This document shows, piece by piece, positions 1 through 8,321 of a stretch of 9,301 bases of DNA (the stretch's first letter is position 1; the number at the start of each line of letters is the position of its first letter). The stretch is from a virus (Duplodnaviria > Heunggongvirae > Uroviricota > Caudoviricetes), in the IMG/VR virus record IMGVR_UViG_2703719389_000008. One strand, written 5' to 3'. The notes under the pieces are model-generated. The model saw only the letters and a program-made list of their open reading frames with translations, searched no databases and was not told the origin of the DNA. The translations under genes and the position numbers were made by a program.

Positions 1-537
1 TTACGCATGCTTTTCGGTTCCGGCTCCACCAGTACCCGGGTATTGTGGAATACCAAAAAAAAAAATTGCGCCGGTACCATAACCACCAGCCCGAGTGTCA
101 ATCATCCATGCTGACAGGTTTTGATGAGCAAGTTGCCCGAGTGATTCGGATGTCTGGTCACGCAGCTGGTTGTCGCAGTGCCAGCACAACACCATTGCGC
201 CGGTACCATAACGGTGAATGACGGTTTCGCTGTGATGATAATCGCCGTGTGGCCACTGGCAGGATTTAATATGGCACAACAGCCAGTCAGACAATGCACC
301 AGCACCACCAGCAGCACGAATTACCCGTGCGTTACTGAAAAACGGCAGCAATGTTTTGTCTTCCACCAGCGGCTGGCGAACGGCAGGAACGACCCCGGAC
401 GGCAGATTACGCATGCTTTTCGGTTCCGGCTCCACCAGTACCCGGGTATTGTGGAATACCGGCATGGATTCACGGCCCGGCTTAACGACCACCATCCCGA
501 GTTCCGGTACCAGAACAGGTCGAAGTAATACCCGCAC
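1..537 (-). CDS. Hypothetical prophage protein (178 aa) with a Cys/His cluster resembling an HNH/NinG-like zinc-binding nuclease motif; 3' end is mosaic
   Basis: GTG start at 537 preceded by GGAGGT Shine-Dalgarno 4 nt upstream, immediately after the stop of the upstream 92-aa gene (translational coupling). Motif CHIKSC-x7-DYHH-x15-LCWHCDNQ. Last 54 nt (1..54) duplicate 407..460 in another frame, followed by an A11 run (55..65). TAA stop at 1..3. Confidence 0.45.
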   Translation of the reverse strand: MRVLLRPVLVPELGMVVVKPGRESMPVFHNTRVLVEPEPKSMRNLPSGVVPAVRQPLVEDKTLLPFFSNARVIRAAGGAGALSDWLLCHIKSCQWPHGDYHHSETVIHRYGTGAMVLCWHCDNQLRDQTSESLGQLAHQNLSAWMIDTRAGGYGTGAIFFFGIPQYPGTGGAGTEKHA

Positions 538-538
538 G

Positions 539-817
539 TTACCTCCAGATGCGTTGCTGGAATGTACGGGACGGACGCGGTGGGCGTTCGGAGTTAGGCA
601 ATCTGACTGAGATTATCCAGTGACGGTAGTCGAGACTAAGAGCTTTCTTAACCTCGTATCCGCGCCTGCGGTAACACTGAATTATCCATTCCGCCTGCTC
701 TTCAGTGCATGGAGGGTGCTGGAACCATTCAGACTTGAATGCGTGAGAATACCGCTCGTGCGTGCAGGCAAGAACGGGCGAATTATCAGAATTGTAATAT
801 TTTACGTTGCGTGCCAT
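539..817 (-). CDS. Hypothetical small prophage protein (92 aa), copy A of a duplicated gene
   Basis: ATG at 817 with GGAGA RBS. Paralog of 1601..1879: C-terminal 60 aa nearly identical, N-terminus diverged at protein level but keeping the frame, which supports this strand being coding. Confidence 0.5.
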   Translation of the reverse strand: MARNVKYYNSDNSPVLACTHERYSHAFKSEWFQHPPCTEEQAEWIIQCYRRRGYEVKKALSLDYRHWIISVRLPNSERPPRPSRTFQQRIWR

Positions 818-883: not shown

Positions 884-1135
884 TTATTCTTCTGCAAAAG
901 CTGAAAAGCCTGCTTTTATTCCAATCTCTTTCAGTGCCTGTAATGAAGTGACAAACTCACCTTCGCGCAAGATAAATCCGTCTGTCACTCGACCATCCAC
1001 AAAATTAATTAACGCAGCCCCATTCTTTCGCAAACACATAATGCGGTAATGACTAACAAGATTTCCATTTTCAACGCACACAGCATAGAGGCCATCTTCA
1101 CAAAAAATTTTACGCAGTTCTTCGATGTTCATCAT
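884..1135 (-). CDS. Hypothetical small prophage protein (83 aa)
   Basis: ATG-ATG start at 1135 with GGAAGGA RBS 5 nt upstream; non-repetitive, balanced composition; lies between the two repeat units. Size and position next to hok recall Rem of Qin but this is not verified. Confidence 0.5.
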   Translation of the reverse strand: MMNIEELRKIFCEDGLYAVCVENGNLVSHYRIMCLRKNGAALINFVDGRVTDGFILREGEFVTSLQALKEIGIKAGFSAFAEE

Positions 1136-1200: not shown

Positions 1201-1599
1201 TTAAGTATTTTTGATTCTATTCCGGCACTGGTTGTCGCAGTGCCAGCACAACACCATTGCGCCGGTACCATAACGGTGAATGACGGTTTCGCTGTGATGA
1301 TAATCGCCGTGTGGCCACTGGCAGGATTTAATATGGCGCAACAGCCAGTCAGACAATGCACCAGCACCACCAGCAGCACGAATCACCCGTGCGTTACTGA
1401 AAAACGGCAGCAATGTTTTGTCTTCCACCAGCGGCTGGCGAACGGCAGGAACGACCCCGGACGGCAGATTACGCATGCTTTTCGGTTCCGGCTCCACCAG
1501 TACCCGGGTATTGTGGAATACCGGCATGGATTCACGGCCCGGCTTAACGATCACCAGCCCGAGTTCCGGTACCAGAACAGGTCGAAGTAATACCCGCAC
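1201..1599 (-). CDS. 3'-truncated paralog (132 aa) of the 1..537 HNH/NinG-like gene; probable gene remnant
   Basis: Same GTG start and Shine-Dalgarno context as copy A. Near-identical to copy A through the CWHCDNQ motif, then ends after 7 more codons exactly where the repeat homology stops (about 1228). Confidence 0.4.
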   Translation of the reverse strand: MRVLLRPVLVPELGLVIVKPGRESMPVFHNTRVLVEPEPKSMRNLPSGVVPAVRQPLVEDKTLLPFFSNARVIRAAGGAGALSDWLLRHIKSCQWPHGDYHHSETVIHRYGTGAMVLCWHCDNQCRNRIKNT

Positions 1600-1600
1600 G

Positions 1601-1879
1601 TTACCTCCAGATGCGTTGCTGGAATGTGCGGGACGGACGCGGTGGGCGTTCGGAGTAAGGGAGTCTGACTGAGATTATCCAGTGACGATAGTCGAGACTA
1701 AGAGCTTTCTTAACCTCGTATCCACGCCTGCGGTAACACTGAATTATCCATTCAGCCTGCTCTTCAGTGCATGGAGGATGCTGGAACCAGTCTGATGTGA
1801 ATGCGTGAAAACGCCGTCCGCACCTGCTGGCAAAGACAGCAGAATCATTAGAATTGTGTAATTTGGTATCGTGCGCCAT
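1601..1879 (-). CDS. Hypothetical small prophage protein (92 aa), copy B of the duplicated gene
   Basis: Start chosen at the internal ATG (1879) that aligns with the copy A start (MAHDTKL vs MARNVKY). The longer 1601..2008 ORF in the track would read through a rho-independent terminator. Confidence 0.5.
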   Translation of the reverse strand: MAHDTKLHNSNDSAVFASRCGRRFHAFTSDWFQHPPCTEEQAEWIIQCYRRRGYEVKKALSLDYRHWIISVRLPYSERPPRPSRTFQQRIWR

Positions 1880-1950
1880 CGGTTGTCTCTGCTGGCGCAG
1901 CAGGTGCCAGTTGTTCAGGCTGGCGTGCGAATTGTAAACCAGAATGCCAG

Positions 1951-1978
1951 GAAAAAACAAAACCCGCCGAAGCGGGTT
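1951..1978 (-). terminator. Rho-independent terminator downstream of hok
   Basis: On the minus strand: AACCCGC-TTCG-GCGGGTT (7-bp stem, UUCG tetraloop) followed by TTGTTTTTTCC, about 70 nt after the hok stop. Confidence 0.65.
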
Positions 1979-2046
1979 AAGTGCGGGTGCATTGAGGATG
2001 CCTGACACATCAGAGGTGGCGAGGGATTTCTCCCCCGCCTGGTCTC

Positions 2047-2202
2047 TTACTCCTCAGGTTCGTAAGCTGTGAAGACAGCGACCTCCGTCTGGCCGGTTCG
2101 GATTCGTACCTCGCAGAGGTCTTTCCTCGTTACCAGTGTCGTCACTATGACGGTTAAACAGATGACGATCAGGACGATTAACATCGCCTTTTGCTGCTTC
2201 AT
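2047..2202 (-). CDS. hokD: Hok/Gef-family small membrane toxin (51 aa)
   Basis: Translation MKQQKAMLIVLIVICLTVIVTTLVTRKDLCEVRIRTGQTEVAVFTAYEPEE: Hok-family hydrophobic helix plus conserved RKxLCE and AYE motifs, close to my recollection of HokD/RelF. AAGGAG RBS 9 nt upstream of ATG 2202. The in-frame upstream ATG at 2259 is treated as leader. Confidence 0.85.
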   Translation of the reverse strand: MKQQKAMLIVLIVICLTVIVTTLVTRKDLCEVRIRTGQTEVAVFTAYEPEE

Positions 2203-2479
2203 AGCCTGCTTCTCCTTGCCTTTCGGCACGTAAGAGGCTAACCTAGATTTGCCGTTCATAGATTGAGCCTCAGATTAATGTTAAGCGTCTTGCAGGACGC
2301 GTAATGTTAACTGGGGCTTTTCTCTATCTGCCTTTGGTGTTCATGCCTGAGACAGATAGCCTCAAGCACCCGCAGCCATTCTACTTAACTCCCGTCACCT
2401 CGCCAATATGAAATCAATCAGAAAGGCGAACCATAAGAGCAATAGCAAGACAATAAGGCCCGCATGGTCGTACAAAGAC

Positions 2480-5278
2480 TCAGGCACCGTGACATTTTTT
2501 GTACTTTATTCCCGAGCCACAGGGGCATTGTTCATTCCGGCCGACCGCACCAAAAACTTCAGTTAATTTAGTCTTTGCTGCTTTATGGGCAAGCTGTACG
2601 ATGTAATTTGATTGATTTTGGATTTCTTGACGCTGTACACCTGTGAGGCCTTCGATATAGGGAGCAAGGCGCTGCATTTCGACATCAGCTGCTTTATGCT
2701 GACCCGATAGTGCTAATATGACTGCGTATTGGCTTCGAACCTGAATCAGTCGATGTACTAGACCTGCCTCATTGACAACCGGCAGGACATGTTGCTCCAT
2801 GACTTCCTTGGCACCGTCGTAATCCTTTATGGCAACAAACTCATCCGCCAGATCTTGGCCCACCCTGACCATGGATTCCGGGGCCATGGCCAGATTGTAG
2901 AACTTCATCGAATGAATACGCAGTAATGGTGACAGTTTTCCCTGCGCATCACGAATTCTGGCCAGCAACTCCAGAGCATCAGCCATATGTTTAAAGTGTT
3001 CCTGCATATTTTCGGAATGATTAATAGTTTTCCATAATGCGTCGGCGTTTTTTCCTATGACATCAGCAGGTGTGATACCAAATAAAGAATAGTACCCTTG
3101 TATAACATTACAGCTTAATGTTTCAGCATCCTTGAGTTTTTTTAATCTCCAGAGTGCAATGGCATGGTTGTAGTCAAAGATGCGTTTATGTTCTTCATCT
3201 GGGAGTTGGGGGCGGACTTCCTGTGCCAGCTTTTGAACTTCTCGTGCATCATTGCTTTCTGCCGAAAATAACATTCGTTTCATTGCATAGGCCATCTCTT
3301 CTTGATAGCCGAACTTGTGCTCCGCAAGTAAAGCTCCCATGATGTTTAACCTCTGAGCAATGTGGTCGGATATTCCGTCTTTAAGCTCAACGAAAACAAG
3401 GCCATCCAATGCCCAGAATTTATGAACAGGTCCCAATAAGTCCGATGTTGCAGCACGCTCCAAGCTTGCAAGAATGTCGACCGTCACGCCCATCTCATAA
3501 AACATTTCTTGGCCTGAGAGTTCGATCAACGTCGTGACATCATTGAGCTTAATATAAAGTTGAGTCAACAACGATAACCGTTTTGTATTGCGGGTATTAT
3601 GAAGACTTTCAACTAAAAGGTCTTTCAGCGCTAGTAGCGCTTTGTTCGATATACCCTGATCCATCAGTTCCAGATGTTGCAGTCCTAGCCCCCTGACAGC
3701 ATCATGTACCTTCAGGGTCTGGTTTCCATAAATTTCAATAGTGCCAGTAGCGCGCATTTTCCTAATTAAAGAAGCAGCACTGCTTGGTGAAATGTTCAGC
3801 GAATTGATTAGGAGCGTAGAAATCTCTTCGCGACTCAGCCCTACGTCAGAGAGACTGAACAATGCCAGCGCGCTCTGAAGTAGTGATTCAAATCCCTGAA
3901 ATACACGTGACAGAATAATTTCTTGGGCGGTTTCCGCAGTATGGGTTTGTTGCTGGAGTTCAGCACACAGAGCATCGACATTACGCTCATAATCAGAAAC
4001 GGCGATTTTTGCGGCGCTCTCTACATACAGGGGAAGACCACCAGTGTAAGCCCGTAGCTGCTCGTATCCCATAGCGGTGGCAAATCCTCCGATATCGTTT
4101 ACAACGACAGCTACCGTATCGAGATTCCATCCCTGCAGGCCCTCGCGCTGTAGCCCCGTCATGACCTCCAGTTCGCGAACGTTTTCGTGAGGCTGGCACA
4201 ACAGCACAAAACGAATATGTGTAGTTGCATTCAGAACATCCAGTAGATTTTCCGCAGGTACACGATGGGCGTTATCCAGAACCAGCACCAAGGTGGTACC
4301 CTGCTCTTTCAGGTAGGTATCAAAACTCCTAAGAGCCTCAAAACCACTGGCACCGGGGAGCAAAATCCTGCGCAAACCGTCTTGGTCACGGGCTGTAAAT
4401 CTAGCAGCCATCTCGCGCACCAGCGTACTGGCCAGAGCTGGACCGGGAAGATCACCGGTGTCGTAATAAGCACAAAGTGCAGTGGAGTGTAATGCGGCCT
4501 GTGCGGCCCAAGCTGTCTTGCCTGCACCTGAGAGTCCACAAAGGATACGGATCCGCTCACCAGATGTGAGAGAAGGTTCTTCGTTCTGTGGGCGGTACAG
4601 TGCTGGTGGTGCAGGAAAGTCCTGTAGCTGAACGATCAACTGTTCAAATAGTTCAGTAAGTTCTTCCGTGAAAAACGTATGTTGTCCATTGGTATCGCCT
4701 CCGGTGGCGGCAAGCTGAACCAATCCTGCTAACTTCCAAATCAAGGATTCTGGGGACAATAGTGAAAATTTCAGCTTTTCTGCTTCTGCGATACACCATG
4801 TGGCCGCATCAGCCAGAGTACTCCATGCGGGCGGAAGTGCCGGGTGACGTCCAGCTGTCGACTGGGGCCAGACAATAAGAACATCAGAAGGAAGCTTTTT
4901 ATCGTCAATCATCTTCTGAAGCAGCGGTCCAGGCGCCTGGTTTACAATAATCACAAAAGAAGCCACCCCTTCGCGGTTTGCCGAAGTATGCTCATTTCTG
5001 AGCTTTACAAATCGCTCCAGAGCCCCCGACACATCGTTGGGCATAATAGGTTTTGAACGGGTTTTAACCTGAATGTAGAGACGTTCCTGTTTGGATTTCA
5101 GCTCAATATCCTCATCAAGCTCGACAGTTACTGAGTCCATAGCTGCCCTCTGCGCCAAAAGTAAGCAGCCTACAGCGTAAAGATGCTGGTAAAGGAACCC
5201 CCGGTGTACCGCTTCGATACGCACCAACTGCACAGGATCCAGTACGTCCAGATTTTGTTTGTTTTCACTTCCCCACAT
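2480..5278 (-). CDS. Large multidomain protein (932 aa): PD-(D/E)xK-like nuclease motif, STAND (NB-ARC-like) P-loop NTPase, TPR-like helical repeats, C-terminal SEC-C zinc ribbon; candidate NLR-like antiviral sensor
   Basis: Uninterrupted 2.8-kb ORF with AAGGAA RBS 6 nt upstream of ATG 5278. Walker A GLSGAGKT (nt 4514..4537, verified by translation), Walker B LVLVLDN (4271..4291, verified), GGLPL (about 4028..4042), VHD (aa 524-526), N-terminal D57...Q70-V-K72 (about 5063..5122), C-terminal CPCGSGIKYKKCH (2489..2527). Confidence 0.85.
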   Translation of the reverse strand: MWGSENKQNLDVLDPVQLVRIEAVHRGFLYQHLYAVGCLLLAQRAAMDSVTVELDEDIELKSKQERLYIQVKTRSKPIMPNDVSGALERFVKLRNEHTSANREGVASFVIIVNQAPGPLLQKMIDDKKLPSDVLIVWPQSTAGRHPALPPAWSTLADAATWCIAEAEKLKFSLLSPESLIWKLAGLVQLAATGGDTNGQHTFFTEELTELFEQLIVQLQDFPAPPALYRPQNEEPSLTSGERIRILCGLSGAGKTAWAAQAALHSTALCAYYDTGDLPGPALASTLVREMAARFTARDQDGLRRILLPGASGFEALRSFDTYLKEQGTTLVLVLDNAHRVPAENLLDVLNATTHIRFVLLCQPHENVRELEVMTGLQREGLQGWNLDTVAVVVNDIGGFATAMGYEQLRAYTGGLPLYVESAAKIAVSDYERNVDALCAELQQQTHTAETAQEIILSRVFQGFESLLQSALALFSLSDVGLSREEISTLLINSLNISPSSAASLIRKMRATGTIEIYGNQTLKVHDAVRGLGLQHLELMDQGISNKALLALKDLLVESLHNTRNTKRLSLLTQLYIKLNDVTTLIELSGQEMFYEMGVTVDILASLERAATSDLLGPVHKFWALDGLVFVELKDGISDHIAQRLNIMGALLAEHKFGYQEEMAYAMKRMLFSAESNDAREVQKLAQEVRPQLPDEEHKRIFDYNHAIALWRLKKLKDAETLSCNVIQGYYSLFGITPADVIGKNADALWKTINHSENMQEHFKHMADALELLARIRDAQGKLSPLLRIHSMKFYNLAMAPESMVRVGQDLADEFVAIKDYDGAKEVMEQHVLPVVNEAGLVHRLIQVRSQYAVILALSGQHKAADVEMQRLAPYIEGLTGVQRQEIQNQSNYIVQLAHKAAKTKLTEVFGAVGRNEQCPCGSGIKYKKCHGA

Positions 5279-5521: not shown

Positions 5522-5773
5522 TTAATACCGAACATTTCCCTGATAAAATTCCAGTATGCGCTGCATAACTTCGCTCTGACGACACTCGCGACAAATTATA
5601 TTCTGTCGTCTGTTGTAACGGCGTATTTCGCCATCTAGCAATGAATAAATCAGGTCAGGGTCGCTCTTCTTTTTCACTGCCGCTCTCGACATTTTTTTTG
5701 CGGGCTTTTCCCCAGTCCTTACGAGCCTGCTCCGAAGGAAATATTCCATGTCCTGAACCATATACTGCGCCAC
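5522..5773 (-). CDS. Ren-like C-terminal segment; probably the downstream half of a frameshifted 135-aa gene
   Basis: C-terminus ...NIICRECRQSEVMQRILEFYQGNVRY resembles the lambda Ren C-terminus (KECRQSAAMKRVLAVYG, from memory). Overlaps 5655..5930 in the +1 frame across an A8 run. Confidence 0.45.
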   Translation of the reverse strand: MAQYMVQDMEYFLRSRLVRTGEKPAKKMSRAAVKKKSDPDLIYSLLDGEIRRYNRRQNIICRECRQSEVMQRILEFYQGNVRY

Positions 5774-5930
5774 TAACTACCAGCTCTTTCACCAGAACTT
5801 CTATCAGGTGTCTCGTCGCCCCGGTTTCATTTTCCAGTTGTTTACGCGTTTTTCGCCCATCTCTGCGTACCAGTTCCACAATGCGCGCCTTCACTTCTTC
5901 CCGCAGTTCGGGAGTAAAAACTTTTGCCAC
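5655..5930 (-). CDS. Small HTH-like protein; probably the upstream half of the frameshifted Ren-like gene
   Basis: 91-aa ORF. Frame changes relative to 5522..5773 at the A8 homopolymer (5692..5699); an A7 tract would give one continuous 135-aa ORF. Confidence 0.45.
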   Translation of the reverse strand: MAKVFTPELREEVKARIVELVRRDGRKTRKQLENETGATRHLIEVLVKELVVSGAVYGSGHGIFPSEQARKDWGKARKKNVESGSEKEERP

Positions 5931-5967
5931 AAGCCCTCCTGAAAATTACCCCATGACCTGAAATCTG

Positions 5968-6918
5968 TTACCCTCTGAATCCCGGCGGAATTTCGGTGTC
6001 CGGTTCAGAAATATGATTAACACAACGCTGGTTGTTCGTGCCGCTTACCGGGAGCAACCAGGGGTTTTCAAAATTCCGGTCCGGTCCAAAAAACGTCGTC
6101 GCTCGCTGAACAAATTCCGTTCCCGTTTTCCCGGTAGCAGCCAGGTATCTTGTGTAACGCCTTACACCATCCAGCATGGCCTCTGGTGGCACCCCCTCGC
6201 GTAATCTGGCCTTCCAGGCACTGAAAGCGGATTTCTTCGGGTTTGCCCCGGCTCGTAACGGGTATTCCCGCCAGACCTGTTCGAACACATCCGGATAATC
6301 CACTCGTCCCACAGGCTGCCCGGTGTTTTCCGGGACTACCCGATCGGCTTCCCGCTGAATGGCGGAATCGGCTTCAGGCTGCTGCAGTTGGTGTGATTGC
6401 TCCGGCCCAGCGGTCATCGCCTGCTGCACAGCGCCCGAATCGGCTTTCAGCGCATACGCTGAATCGGCTTCCGGTGTCGTGCCTGCGGGCTGGCCAGGAG
6501 TGACGGTCTGAACATCCCCTACATGGTTCGTGGCGTTTTTTACGCCATGGACCATAGTGTTTTGATCTTCTTTATCTGTATCTCTATCTGTATCTTTATC
6601 TGTCGTGACTCGTCGTGACATGTGCGTGACATTTCGTGACGCGCCGTGACAATCGCCATTTTGTTCCCGCTTTCTTTCCCTCTCACGCTGCGCCCTCTTG
6701 CGCTCTGCCGGAGATTTTGCGGTTTGCGAAATATTGCCGTTGTCCTCTTTAAGCACCTGGCGTTTTTCCCATCCAGTGATTAAATCACCATCAAGTACCC
6801 GCCCCTGCATCGTCTGCAAAATTGAATCAATTACCTCTTCTGTCACGTCGAGCGCACTTGCCAAATCTTCTGTCGTGACATCAATGTGACCTCGCGTGAC
6901 ATTTCGTGACGCGCTCAC
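5968..6918 (-). CDS. Phage replication initiator (replisome-organizer type), main reading frame, with repeat-encoded low-complexity linker and DnaD/phage-associated-like C-terminal domain
   Basis: 316-aa ORF (GTG at 6918). Aa 15-40 EDLASALDVTEEVIDSILQTMQGRVL match the second half of the replisome-organizer N-terminal domain; linker TDKDTDRDTDKED is encoded by DNA direct repeats; C-terminal block VWREYP...AWKARL...RYTRYL...ATTFF...ENPW. Sits directly after ydaS-ydaT, the O position of a lambdoid phage. Confidence 0.7.
   Translation of the reverse strand: MSASRNVTRGHIDVTTEDLASALDVTEEVIDSILQTMQGRVLDGDLITGWEKRQVLKEDNGNISQTAKSPAERKRAQRERERKREQNGDCHGASRNVTHMSRRVTTDKDTDRDTDKEDQNTMVHGVKNATNHVGDVQTVTPGQPAGTTPEADSAYALKADSGAVQQAMTAGPEQSHQLQQPEADSAIQREADRVVPENTGQPVGRVDYPDVFEQVWREYPLRAGANPKKSAFSAWKARLREGVPPEAMLDGVRRYTRYLAATGKTGTEFVQRATTFFGPDRNFENPWLLPVSGTNNQRCVNHISEPDTEIPPGFRG
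6561..6650. repeat. Origin-like repeat block: three 12-bp tandem repeats in an AT-rich stretch plus five helically phased CGTGAC hexamers
   Basis: 12-bp units ATCTGTATCTCT / ATCTGTATCTTT / ATCTGTCGTGAC at 6574, 6586, 6598. CGTGAC at 6604, 6614, 6625, 6635, 6645 (10-11 bp spacing). Lies inside the replication gene. Confidence 0.6.
6874..6914. repeat. Second phased hexamer array, including a 21-bp exact direct repeat of the origin-like block
   Basis: (C/T)GTGAC at 6874, 6885, 6895, 6905. GCGTGACATTTCGTGACGCGC at 6894..6914 is identical to 6624..6644. Confidence 0.55.
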
Positions 6919-7039
6919 CAGGAGCGTGGATATACACTGCCATCACTGTTGCAATTGGCTGCCCTGACACCCTGGCAATTGTTCGCCACTTAGGGTCATT
7001 TGGCATGTCATGCCATAATCTGAGCCAGGCGTTAGCCAT
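6881..7039 (-). pseudogene. N-terminal fragment of the replication initiator in a different frame (52 codons); apparent +1 frame break relative to 5968..6918
   Basis: ATG at 7039 preceded by GAGGTGAG Shine-Dalgarno. Translation MANAWLRLWHDMPNDPKWRTIARVSGQPIATVMAVYIHAPGERVTKCHARSH (verified codon by codon) carries the W-L-[KR]-L...D-P-K signature of replisome-organizer N-terminal domains. Ends at TGA 6881..6883 inside the hexamer array. Confidence 0.4.
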
Positions 7040-7110
7040 ACTCACCTCTTCTGATACCGAATCTTTTTACTCACGAATTGCCGGAAGCGATTCGATATGG
7101 CTATTGTCAG

Positions 7111-7536
7111 TCAATGTACTGCCACAGCATTTCCTGCCGGGCCACCACGGTTCATCTGATTGAAACCGGCGATTGCCACTGCGACAAAATCATCAGCGTC
7201 TCTCACCAGTCGCTCCCGCGTCTCCACCAACTCCCGAAAATAAGCTGAACTGTGGCTGCGCATTCTGGCCACCAGCAAAGGTGGCATTGCCTTTTCGATC
7301 GCTGGTAACAACGCCTGAATTTTTTCAACTGCATCAGGGGTGTCTTTCTCTACCCAGCGGAAAATTTTCTGGGTATTGCGAGCCAGGGCTTCCGGATGGC
7401 TGTCGTCATACAGTTCAGGAAACGTCATACCCAACTCAAAATAAGCCTGGGTTATTCCAGCTGCTGGAACTTTTTCGCCATCAGGACGCGCCCAGGCATT
7501 CATCGCCATGCGGATGTGTTCATGCTTGATTTTCAT
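7111..7536 (-). CDS. ydaT: YdaT-family protein (141 aa), CII-like position in the early-right operon
   Basis: N-terminus MKIKHEHI... characteristic of the Rac YdaT family; start overlaps the ydaS stop by 17 nt. Confidence 0.8.
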   Translation of the reverse strand: MKIKHEHIRMAMNAWARPDGEKVPAAGITQAYFELGMTFPELYDDSHPEALARNTQKIFRWVEKDTPDAVEKIQALLPAIEKAMPPLLVARMRSHSSAYFRELVETRERLVRDADDFVAVAIAGFNQMNRGGPAGNAVAVH

Positions 7537-7801
7537 GAATCAAGCTCCTAGTAAGTGGTTGTGTTAACGTTTTGGTATCTTCCAGCTCGGGCCAAATATT
7601 CATCCAATCAAAAGGCCTTAGTTGCTGACGTGTAACTTCACCATTACTGGCTCGCTCAATAAGGACACATAACGATGCCCCTAACATTTGACCTTTACTC
7701 AATGCCTTTCTTAGATAACCGATGCTAGTACCACACTCACATGCAAACATACGCTGTTCATCTGACGAAAGAGAATTGAGAAATATTCTTAATTCTTCCA
7801 T
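7520..7801 (-). CDS. ydaS: Cro-like HTH regulator, YdaS family (93 aa)
   Basis: HTH segment GTSIGYLRKALSKGQ and conserved E(V)TRQQLRPFDW block; AAGGAG RBS 5 nt upstream of ATG 7801; divergent from the repressor gene. Confidence 0.75.
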   Translation of the reverse strand: MEELRIFLNSLSSDEQRMFACECGTSIGYLRKALSKGQMLGASLCVLIERASNGEVTRQQLRPFDWMNIWPELEDTKTLTQPLTRSLIHENQA

Positions 7802-7826: not shown

Positions 7827-7895
7827 AGAATACCCACAGGTAAACAAAAGTCAATACCCTTGGGTTGTTTACCTTGCGGTAATCGCATCTATTAT
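7827..7895. promoter_or_regulatory. Divergent immunity promoters with operator repeats
   Basis: Minus strand: -35 TTGACT (7849..7854) and -10 TATTCT (7827..7832), 16-bp spacer, driving ydaS. Plus strand: -35 TTGTTT (7865..7870) and -10 TATTAT (7890..7895) ending 6 nt before ATG 7902. 10-bp inverted repeat AGGTAAACAA (7838..7847) / TTGTTTACCT (7865..7874), third GTAAACA at 7815..7821, plus TACCC-N2-GGGT(A/T) half-palindromes at 7831..7842 and 7855..7866. Confidence 0.5.
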
Positions 7896-7901
7896 TTACC
7901 T

Positions 7902-8321
7902 ATGGACAAATATGAATTTAGACGACAACAACTCATCAAAATTCGTGATGAGAAATGCGATGGTAAAGCGGTTAACGTGGCCAGAAAGATCGGTCGCGAG
8001 CCTTCTTATGTATCAAGAATGTTGTACCCAGAGGGGAAAAAAGGAAAAAAACGGATCGCTGATGATATGGTGGAGATTATAGAAGAGTCCTTTGGGTTAC
8101 CCCGGGGATGGATGGATGGTATCGTTTCATCATCAACGAACACAGCCTCCAATTATGAAACAAGGGTTCTAACGCCACGACAACGTATTTTTTTAGATCT
8201 CTTAGACGAACTGCCAGAAAGTGAAGCGGATAACTTATTAAAAACTCTTGAAGAGAAAAAACAGTATTACAATATGATCTACGAAGAAATCCGTAAAAAG
8301 AAAGCACAAAACGCATCATAA
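7902..8321 (+). CDS. CI-like prophage repressor (RacR/DicA-type HTH protein, 139 aa)
   Basis: HTH segment GKAVNVARKIGREPSYVSRML and C-terminal LDLLDELPESEADNLL, similar in layout to DicA/RacR-type repressors. No Shine-Dalgarno before ATG 7902 and a -10 just upstream, consistent with a leaderless cI-like transcript. The track's TTG start at 7860 is rejected. Confidence 0.7.
   Translation: MDKYEFRRQQLIKIRDEKCDGKAVNVARKIGREPSYVSRMLYPEGKKGKKRIADDMVEIIEESFGLPRGWMDGIVSSSTNTASNYETRVLTPRQRIFLDLLDELPESEADNLLKTLEEKKQYYNMIYEEIRKKKAQNAS

What the first reader, a model, noticed from the sequence alone, without database searches (positions are those of the whole stretch)
6874..7039. Replication initiator appears frame-disrupted inside a second hexamer array
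The conserved N-terminal domain is split between two frames. Its first half (MANAWLRLWHDMPNDPKW..., from ATG 7039 with a strong Shine-Dalgarno) ends at TGA 6881..6883. Its second half (...EDLASALDVTEEVIDSILQTMQGRVL) is in the +1 frame that opens at GTG 6918. The junction lies in an array of four phased (C/T)GTGAC hexamers that includes a 21-bp exact copy of origin sequence (6894..6914 = 6624..6644). Gain of one 10-bp repeat unit would produce exactly this +1 shift. Explanations: an inactivated cryptic prophage, an assembly error in repeats, or repeat-number switching.
Basis: partly seen in the sequence, partly recalled or inferred. Interest (0 to 1): 0.6.

Follow-up and report, generated by a model that had tools for sequence, protein, structure and literature searches.

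The report
Prophage replication initiator broken by one base
A prophage replication-initiator gene in an E. coli lineage is knocked out by one inserted base, an ordinary pseudogene; the nearby repeat array did not cause it and is a conserved second set of probable initiator-binding sites.

Summary

The proposed cause is wrong. Intact relatives (356 aa, one ORF) have the same four hexamers. The window differs by one extra G (minus strand; + strand C at 6925), 15 nt upstream of the array. The closest complete genome differs in 5.36 kb only by this base.

It is not an assembly error. Ten independent contigs carry the extra base: six isolate assemblies and four metagenome contigs. None of 2,059 copies in 5,426 complete E. 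coli genomes carries it. It is a young, lineage-specific pseudogene in a lambdoid prophage that is already decaying.

The gene carries a lambda-like origin in its linker: five GTCACG iterons followed by a 73% AT tract. The "second array" is a family-wide feature. In 37 of 58 relatives from different species, one word fills both arrays and almost nowhere else in the gene. That word differs between relatives (GTCACG, GTAACG, CGAACG). It sits in all three codon phases and freezes synonymous sites.

Repeat-driven changes do occur in other lineages, always in frame. One example is a 270-bp deletion across the 21-bp repeat in Shigella sonnei.

The parts
5968..7039 (-). Replication initiator ('phage replisome organizer') gene, here a pseudogene. 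It is 1072 nt in the window and 1071 nt (356 aa) in intact relatives.
   Evidence: intact single ORFs in E. coli relatives (for example WP_001262378.1); end-to-end match to phrog_3729 'replication initiation protein' (E 5.5e-253, 356/356).
6925..6925 (-). The lesion: one inserted G on the minus strand (C on the + strand), between codons His38 (CAC) and Leu39 (CTC).
   Evidence: it is the only gap or mismatch in a 241-column alignment with three intact genes; it is the only difference from NZ_CP148579.1 over 5362 nt.
6881..7039 (-). Residual 52-codon ORF: 38 native residues, then 14 out-of-frame residues, then TGA. The Shine-Dalgarno GAGGTG lies at 7043..7048.
5968..6918 (-). Downstream 316-codon ORF from GTG 6918, with no Shine-Dalgarno upstream (CACGCTCCTG). 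It lacks the first 40 residues of the conserved N-terminal domain. It has been deposited as CTT43583.1 and others.
6875..6910 (-). Array B: four phased GTCAC(G/A) words inside the coding sequence of the N-terminal domain (peptide SRNVTRGHIDVT).
   Evidence: Conserved and co-varying with array A across the family. Third-codon-position conservation is 0.82 against 0.60 and 0.59 in the two flanks.
6842..6847 (+). One inverted GTCACG copy 28 nt downstream of array B (reads GACGTGACA = DVT on the coding strand).
   Evidence: Kept in 12 of 13 GTCACG-type relatives, with fixed synonymous positions.
6605..6650 (-). Array A: five GTCACG iterons at 10-11 nt spacing in the interdomain linker. This is the probable origin proper.
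6555..6603 (-). AT-rich tract next to array A (GC 0.27), with three 12-nt repeats (6569..6603) that encode DKDTDRDTDK. This is the probable DNA-unwinding element.
   Evidence: (repeat family D2). No comparable trough lies next to array B.
6894..6914 (.). 21-bp exact repeat shared with 6624..6644, offset 270 nt (90 codons, in frame).
   Evidence: The same repeat is the crossover point of a 270-bp deletion allele in Shigella sonnei.

Best explanation
The gene at 5968..7039 (minus strand) is the replication initiator of a lambdoid prophage. It sits after the Cro-like (YdaS) and CII-like (YdaT) genes. Like lambda O, it carries its own origin in the linker between its two domains: five GTCACG iterons followed by an AT-rich tract.

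In the E. coli lineage the window comes from, one G was inserted after codon 38. This is shown. Translation from the good start site therefore ends after 52 codons. The remaining 316-codon frame has no ribosome-binding site and lacks the most conserved part of the DNA-binding domain. I infer that no functional initiator is made, so the prophage can no longer start its own replication, although its origin DNA is intact.

The hexamer array next to the lesion played no part in it. It is a conserved second cluster of the same iteron word, written into a variable surface loop of the initiator's own N-terminal domain. I infer that it is an auxiliary binding site for the initiator, used for autoregulation or to build or loop the origin complex.
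For: Shown:
- The insertion is one base, and the hexamer count equals that of intact genes.
- It is the only difference from the closest complete genome over 5362 nt.
- All 10 contigs found through the truncated product carry it: six NCBI isolate assemblies and four ENA metagenome contigs. Nine are 100% identical over 5842 nt. The tenth differs at 21 positions and still has the insertion.
- None of 2,059 copies in 5,426 complete E. coli genomes has it.
- The intact protein is a full-length member of phrog_3729. Its N-terminal part (residues 1-105/110) is encoded at 100% identity in seven Escherichia phage records, and one of these (vB_EcoS-640R1) carries the whole protein at 97% identity.
- Decay in the same prophage: the DUF977 gene is frameshifted in the window and in the closest genome. 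That genome also has a frameshifted integrase and a TerB pseudogene, next to complete head, tail and lysis genes.

Arrays:
- GTCACG is four times over-represented and clustered.
- An AT trough (GC 0.27) lies next to array A only.
- In 37 of 58 full-length relatives from different species, the commonest word of region B recurs at least twice in region A and 0-1 times in the rest of the gene. The word classes are GTCACG, GTAACG and CGAACG.
- The words occupy all three codon phases.
- Synonymous sites inside the words are frozen in 13 genera while the spacers vary.
- The AlphaFold model has a confidence dip at residues 47-52, between two helices. This fits a tolerant loop.
Against: - No expression or replication data exist. 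Loss of function is inferred from the truncation.
- The 316-aa ORF could be translated at a low level from GTG 6918 or an internal ATG, and might keep the C-terminal (helicase-loading) function.
- Binding of the initiator to either array is inferred only from lambda and SPP1 precedent and from covariation.
- 21 of 58 relatives do not show the two-array pattern with the simple 6-mer test.
- The N-terminal domain matches the curated 'replisome organizer' models only below threshold.
Confidence: 0.9

Rival explanations
1. Gain of one 10-bp hexamer unit in the array shifted the frame, possibly reversibly as repeat-number switching.
For: The arithmetic works: 10 nt gives a +1 shift. Repeat number does vary in the family. 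L016/P0003 has 6 + 7 copies against 4 + 5 here.
Against: The array is identical base for base, with the same four copies, in intact genes. The extra base lies 15 nt upstream in non-repetitive sequence, CCAC-G-CTCC. All the repeat-number changes seen in relatives are in frame: +21 nt, a 270-nt deletion, and a duplication of the origin segment.
Confidence: 0.01
2. The extra base is a sequencing or assembly error in a repetitive region.
For: The window is a short draft contig (9301 bp, CYCY01000057.1). The complete genome that is otherwise identical lacks the base.
Against: The same base is present in 10 of 10 contigs from different accession series (CY.., NKOG, JBBGQJ, AAVTDE) and from four unrelated metagenome assemblies, including one 21-SNP variant. 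The site is neither a homopolymer nor a repeat.
Confidence: 0.03
3. The two frames are used on purpose: either programmed ribosomal frameshifting, or two separate conserved genes.
For: The upstream ORF has a strong Shine-Dalgarno, and the two ORFs overlap by 38 nt.
Against: Every other copy examined is a single continuous ORF. This includes the phage copies and relatives in Beta- and Alphaproteobacteria. The split arrangement is confined to one near-clonal lineage. By reading the sequence, I see no slippery heptamer or prfB-like +1 site between 6925 and 6881.
Confidence: 0.02
4. The truncated 316-aa product is made and is useful. For example, it could interfere with replication of incoming related phages, or load helicase without binding the origin. 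In that case the frameshift was selected rather than being neutral decay.
For: The lineage is widespread enough to appear in six isolate assemblies and four metagenomes. The prophage keeps likely host-beneficial cargo: a 932-aa gene with a nuclease-like domain, an ATPase domain and a SEC-C motif, and hok. Locking a prophage in place is a known route to domestication (general knowledge).
Against: There is no Shine-Dalgarno before GTG 6918. The lesion is very young, with zero other changes in 5.36 kb, so its persistence says little about selection. No independent recurrence of N-terminal truncations was found: the apparent one, P0021, is a contig-edge artefact.
Confidence: 0.1

Closest known systems
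Phage lambda / Stx-phage O protein with ori-lambda inside the O gene
   Same: - The initiator gene follows cro and cII in the early right operon.
- The origin lies in the middle of the initiator gene and consists of iterons followed by an AT-rich region (PMC7466680).
- Extra iterons appear as in-frame extra residues in the protein: 13 aa for two iterons in Stx phages (PMC7466680). Here it is 7 aa for two hexamer units.
   Different: - There is no detectable sequence similarity to lambda O; no Pfam O-family hit was found.
- The repeated word is a 6-mer at 10-11 nt spacing, not a 19-bp inverted repeat.
- A second, conserved iteron cluster lies about 230 nt upstream, inside the DNA-binding-domain coding sequence. 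Lambda is not known to have one.
- In this E. coli version, no P- or DnaC-like loader gene follows.
Bacillus phage SPP1 gp38 (G38P), the replisome organizer, with oriL inside gene 38
   Same: An origin-binding 'replisome organizer' whose binding repeats and AT-rich unwinding element lie within its own gene, and which binds a second repeat set elsewhere (oriR) (PMC6316719). There is weak full-length similarity of residues 5-122 to the Phage_rep_org_N models.
   Different: - SPP1's second site is about 13 kb away, not within the same gene.
- The similarity to PF09681 and TIGR01714 is below the curated cut-offs.
- The host phylum differs.
Frameshift pseudogenes of decaying lambdoid prophages in E. 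coli and Shigella
   Same: A single-base indel in an early gene, alongside other pseudogenes in the same prophage: DUF977 here, plus integrase and TerB in the sister genome. Other broken alleles of the same gene exist in other lineages (P0024, P0028, P0031).
   Different: Nothing substantive. This is a typical example.

Membership tests
Frameshift pseudogene | Orthologues encode one continuous ORF across the site | tested here: met
   the gene is 356 aa and intact in close relatives, and a single ORF in distant ones.
Frameshift pseudogene | An indel whose length is not a multiple of three, causing a premature stop | tested here: met
   a +1 nt insertion at 6925; stop at 6881..6883 after 52 codons.
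Frameshift pseudogene | The lesion is reproducible, not an assembly artefact | tested here: met
   present in 10 of 10 independent contigs.
Lambda-type replication module (origin inside the initiator gene) | The initiator gene lies downstream of cro-like and cII-like genes in the early operon | tested here: met
   YdaS/Cro-like gene at 7520..7801 and YdaT/CII-like gene at 7111..7536, directly upstream on the same strand. A divergent repressor-like gene lies at 7860..8321.
Lambda-type replication module (origin inside the initiator gene) | Phased direct repeats (iterons) in the interdomain linker, followed by an AT-rich tract | tested here: met
   five GTCACG words at 6605..6650, then GC 0.27 at 6555..6599. 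The AlphaFold model is disordered over residues 128-245.
Lambda-type replication module (origin inside the initiator gene) | Sequence homology to lambda O | tested here: not met
   no O-family Pfam hit, even at E <= 10. It works like lambda O but is not a member of that protein family.
Lambda-type replication module (origin inside the initiator gene) | The initiator binds the iterons and the segment supports replication | not testable with these tools
   This needs EMSA or footprinting and a plasmid origin assay.
Phage replisome organizer, N-terminal domain (PF09681 / TIGR01714) | Score above the curated cut-off | tested here: not met
   12.8 bits against a cut-off of 23.3; 15.5 bits against 49.8. 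Both alignments span almost the whole model (1-118/121 and 1-119/119), so remote homology is plausible but unproven. RefSeq nevertheless names the protein 'phage replisome organizer'.
PHROG 3729 'replication initiation protein' | Full-length profile match | tested here: met
   E 5.5e-253, residues 1-356 on profile 1-356.
Phase-variable (contingency) repeat locus | The frame-shifting indel lies in the repeat tract, and out-of-frame copy-number variants occur among close relatives | tested here: not met
   the indel is outside the tract; the variants seen are in frame.
Programmed ribosomal frameshift | A conserved two-frame arrangement with a slippery site | tested here: not met
   the two-frame arrangement occurs only in this lineage; no slippery site seen on reading.

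The most novel reading that the evidence does not exclude
The second hexamer array is a conserved functional element that, as far as I could find, has not been described. This widespread proteobacterial phage initiator family writes a second cluster of its own binding sites into the coding sequence of a surface loop of its DNA-binding domain, about 200-250 nt upstream of the origin iterons. The two clusters evolve together (word class and copy number). They would act together, for example by looping or wrapping the origin complex, or by letting the initiator block its own transcription or translation. The near-identity of the two clusters also makes the gene prone to in-frame deletion, as in the S. 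sonnei allele.
Probability: 0.45. Interest if true: 0.5.

Novelty: new member of a known kind. Interest (0 to 1): 0.2.

Why it matters
The flagged finding is a routine case of prophage decay. Its practical value is in annotation. The deposited 316-aa 'replication protein' (CTT43583.1 and others) is a fragment of a pseudogene. This prophage, which carries a candidate defence gene and hok, is probably unable to replicate on its own in this lineage.

The by-product is more useful. The initiator family is found in prophages and phages across Proteobacteria (E. coli, Shigella, Pseudomonas, Bordetella and many others), and I found no experimental work on it. It turns out to have a recognisable, co-evolving two-cluster iteron signature. 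That signature predicts the origin and the initiator's recognition word directly from sequence. It also gives a clean test case for how DNA-binding sites and protein-coding constraints share the same bases.

Tried and rejected
- Pfam on the two fragments separately gave nothing.
- Exact look-up of the 52-aa fragment found no called gene. It was probably too short to be called.
- Exact-pattern scans for the insertion-bearing 33-mer in the GTDB species representatives and in JGI metagenomes found nothing. The carriers came instead from the exact look-up of the 316-aa product.
- The AlphaFold model of the full protein is poor overall (mean pLDDT 53, linker disordered). Its Foldseek search of the PDB gave no significant match, only weak winged-helix and sigma-region-4 type hits (best E 0.34). 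I make no fold claim.
- P0021 (283 aa, 922 members) looked like a frequent N-terminal truncation. It is a contig-edge artefact: the gene starts at base 6 of its contig.
- Literature searches for this family's iterons or for GTCACG origins found nothing relevant. The one candidate, PMC2647930, concerns a plasmid-like island.
- Programmed frameshifting was considered and rejected, from the family-wide single ORF and the absence of a slippery site.

Full report
**1. The observation**

On the minus strand, ATG 7039 is preceded by GAGGTG at 7043..7048. It opens a frame reading MANAWLRLWHDMPNDPKWRTIARVSGQPIATVMAVYIH. After that the frame continues as APGERVTKCHARSH and stops at TGA 6881..6883. The next frame, open from GTG 6918, reads SASRNVTRGHIDVTTEDLASALDVTEEVIDSILQTMQGRVL... 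and runs to 5968 (316 codons).

Four GTCAC words lie at 6906-6910, 6896-6900, 6886-6890 and 6875-6879. The 21 bases at 6894..6914 equal those at 6624..6644 exactly.

GTCACG occurs 15 times in the window against 3.67 expected, and 0 of 200 shuffles reach 15. Eight of the 15 fall in two phased clusters.

**2. What broke the gene**

A megablast of 5960..7100 against 5,426 complete E. coli genomes finds the region in 2,974 of them. The best hits are 1140 nt long against 1141 nt in the window. They are annotated as one 1071-nt gene, 'phage replisome organizer' or hypothetical protein, of 356 aa.

The alignment with three of these genes is identical in all 241 columns except one. The window has an extra G between CAC (His38) and CTC (Leu39). 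This is + strand position 6925. The hexamer array is the same, base for base, with four copies, in the intact genes. So the frameshift is a single-base insertion in non-repetitive sequence 15 nt upstream of the array. It is not a gain of a 10-bp unit.

**3. Real mutation or artefact**

A 65-nt query centred on the insertion matches 2,059 places in 1,728 complete genomes. None matches at 100%; the best rows are 64 nt long and lack the base.

An exact look-up of the 316-aa product finds it called on 16 contigs. One is the window itself (CYCY01000057.1, 9301 bp, GCA_001277395.1). The ten returned places (six NCBI isolate assemblies, four ENA metagenome contigs) include five other NCBI isolate assemblies and four ENA metagenome assemblies. 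All ten contigs that were returned carry the inserted base.

Nine of them are 100% identical to the window over 5842 nt. The tenth differs at 21 positions and still has the insertion. The complete genome NZ_CP148579.1 differs from the window over 5362 nt by this one gap and nothing else.

The lesion is therefore genuine, heritable, very recent and confined to one near-clonal E. coli lineage. The deposited proteins are labelled E. coli.

**4. What the gene is**

The intact protein matches phrog_3729 'replication initiation protein' end to end (E 5.5e-253). Its C-terminal half matches 'DnaD-like helicase loader' and primosomal PHROGs. The Pfam and TIGRFAM replisome-organizer N-terminal models align over their full length, but below their cut-offs.

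The gene follows a Cro/YdaS-like gene and a CII/YdaT-like gene. It faces a divergent repressor-like gene.

Its N-terminal part (residues 1-105/110) is encoded at 100% identity in seven Escherichia phage records, and at 73-74% identity in Pseudomonas and Aeromonas phages. No classical model phage appears among the hits.

In the sister genome the prophage is about 44 kb and lies next to tRNA-Ser and mtfA. It has complete head, tail and lysis genes, but a frameshifted integrase, a frameshifted DUF977 gene and a TerB pseudogene. The DUF977 frameshift is also in the window. The initiator lesion is one more step in ongoing decay.

**5. The origin and the 'second array'**

Array A consists of five GTCACG words at 6605..6650, spaced 10-11 nt. 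It lies in the linker, which the AlphaFold model predicts to be disordered (residues 128-245). It is followed at once by a tract of GC 0.27 that holds three 12-nt repeats. This is the lambda layout: iterons plus an AT-rich region in the middle of the initiator gene (PMC7466680). SPP1 oriL, inside gene 38, is similar (PMC6316719).

It is not a recent local copy. I collected 60 relatives from one genome per species across Gamma-, Beta- and Alphaproteobacteria, plus metagenomic relatives. The results are as follows.

- In most of them, the most frequent 6-mer of the first 700 nt of the gene forms two clusters, at gene nt ~117-181 and ~350-490.
- In 37 of 58 full-length genes, the top word of region B occurs at least 3 times there and at least 2 times in region A. 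It occurs 0-1 times in the rest of the gene.
- The word differs between relatives (GTCACG 19 genes, CGAACG 10, GTAACG 3, and other words in the remaining 5), but it is the same in both arrays of any one gene.
- The words fall in all three codon phases.
- In 13 GTCACG-type genes from different genera, the four words are invariant while the spacer bases vary. Third-position conservation is 0.82 in codons 42-56, against 0.60 and 0.59 in the flanks.
- An inverted copy (window 6842..6847) is kept in 12 of the 13.
- At the protein level this segment is a variable-length insert between two helices, with a confidence dip at residues 47-52.

I infer that array B is a second cluster of initiator-binding sites under selection at the DNA level. 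What it does (autoregulation, or origin-complex architecture) is untested.

**6. Repeat-driven change does occur, but elsewhere and in frame**

- L016/P0003 has two more hexamers in each array: +7 aa in array B, giving 6 + 7 copies.
- A Shigella sonnei allele (P0024, found in at least 63 blocks of the collection) has lost exactly 270 nt.
- P0017 carries a tandem duplication of the origin segment.

**7. Consequence (inferred)**

The well-initiated ORF yields a 52-residue peptide with 38 native residues. The 316-codon frame has no Shine-Dalgarno and lacks WLRLWHDMPNDPKWRTIAR, the most conserved stretch of the family. No slippery site is visible on reading, and every other copy examined is a single ORF. 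Programmed frameshifting is therefore very unlikely. The prophage keeps an intact origin but most probably makes no initiator.

**8. Verdict**

This is an ordinary, young frameshift pseudogene in a decaying lambdoid prophage. The conserved, co-varying two-cluster iteron architecture of this unstudied initiator family is the only part worth a follow-up. Five literature searches found no description of it, but the library is incomplete.

Noticed in passing
window 2480..5278 (-): A 932-aa protein sits in the moron position after the replication genes. It combines an N-terminal Cap4-like dsDNA nuclease domain, an AAA_22/AAA_16 ATPase domain and a C-terminal SEC-C motif. It has only a weak LmuA (Lamassu effector) match in PADLOC (E 5e-7). 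It is a candidate single-gene defence protein that no PADLOC model clearly covers. In the 95%-identical prophages L002 and L003 a different cargo occupies this position.
   Followed up: partly
window 5522..5930 (-): The DUF977 / Ren-like gene just downstream of the initiator is also split, into overlapping ORFs of 91 aa and 83 aa. The same frameshift is annotated in the closest complete genome, so it predates the initiator lesion.
   Followed up: partly
window 1..537 and 1201..1599 (-); also 539..817 and 1601..2008 (-): There are two near-identical copies of a DUF968 N-terminal fragment. Each is preceded by a copy of a small gene (92 or 135 aa), and an 83-aa gene (884..1135) lies between the units. 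This looks like a local tandem duplication that the closest complete genome appears not to have (annotates one DUF968 gene and one 92-aa gene there); the whole-window match there covers 95% in 3 pieces. The contig ends inside the repeat.
   Followed up: no
L077:1501-2295 (Shigella sonnei, GCA_013825925.1): This is an in-frame 270-bp deletion allele of the same initiator. The crossover lies inside the 21-bp repeat shared by the two iteron arrays and removes most of the DNA-binding domain. It is widespread in S. sonnei assemblies.
   Followed up: yes
P0035 / P0038 (E. coli, 367-369 aa); window about 6540..6560: These are mosaic initiators. An unrelated N-terminal domain is joined to the same C-terminal half, near the conserved 'QNTMVHG' motif just 3' of the AT-rich tract. 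That motif is conserved even in relatives only 46% identical. It may be a module-exchange junction, or part of the origin.
   Followed up: no
L014:3987-4736, L015:3972-4697, L077:2302-3048, compared with window 5655..5930: In distant relatives and in the S. sonnei prophage, a DnaC/IstB-like helicase loader gene follows the initiator directly. In the window's prophage type a DUF977 gene follows instead, and no loader gene is present. The last 24 residues of the initiator weakly resemble the C-terminus of primosomal DnaT (E 0.0015).
   Followed up: no
window 2047..2259 (-): A Hok/Gef-family toxin gene (hokD-like, 70 aa as the ORF is listed) lies between the 932-aa gene and the DUF968 genes.
   Followed up: no
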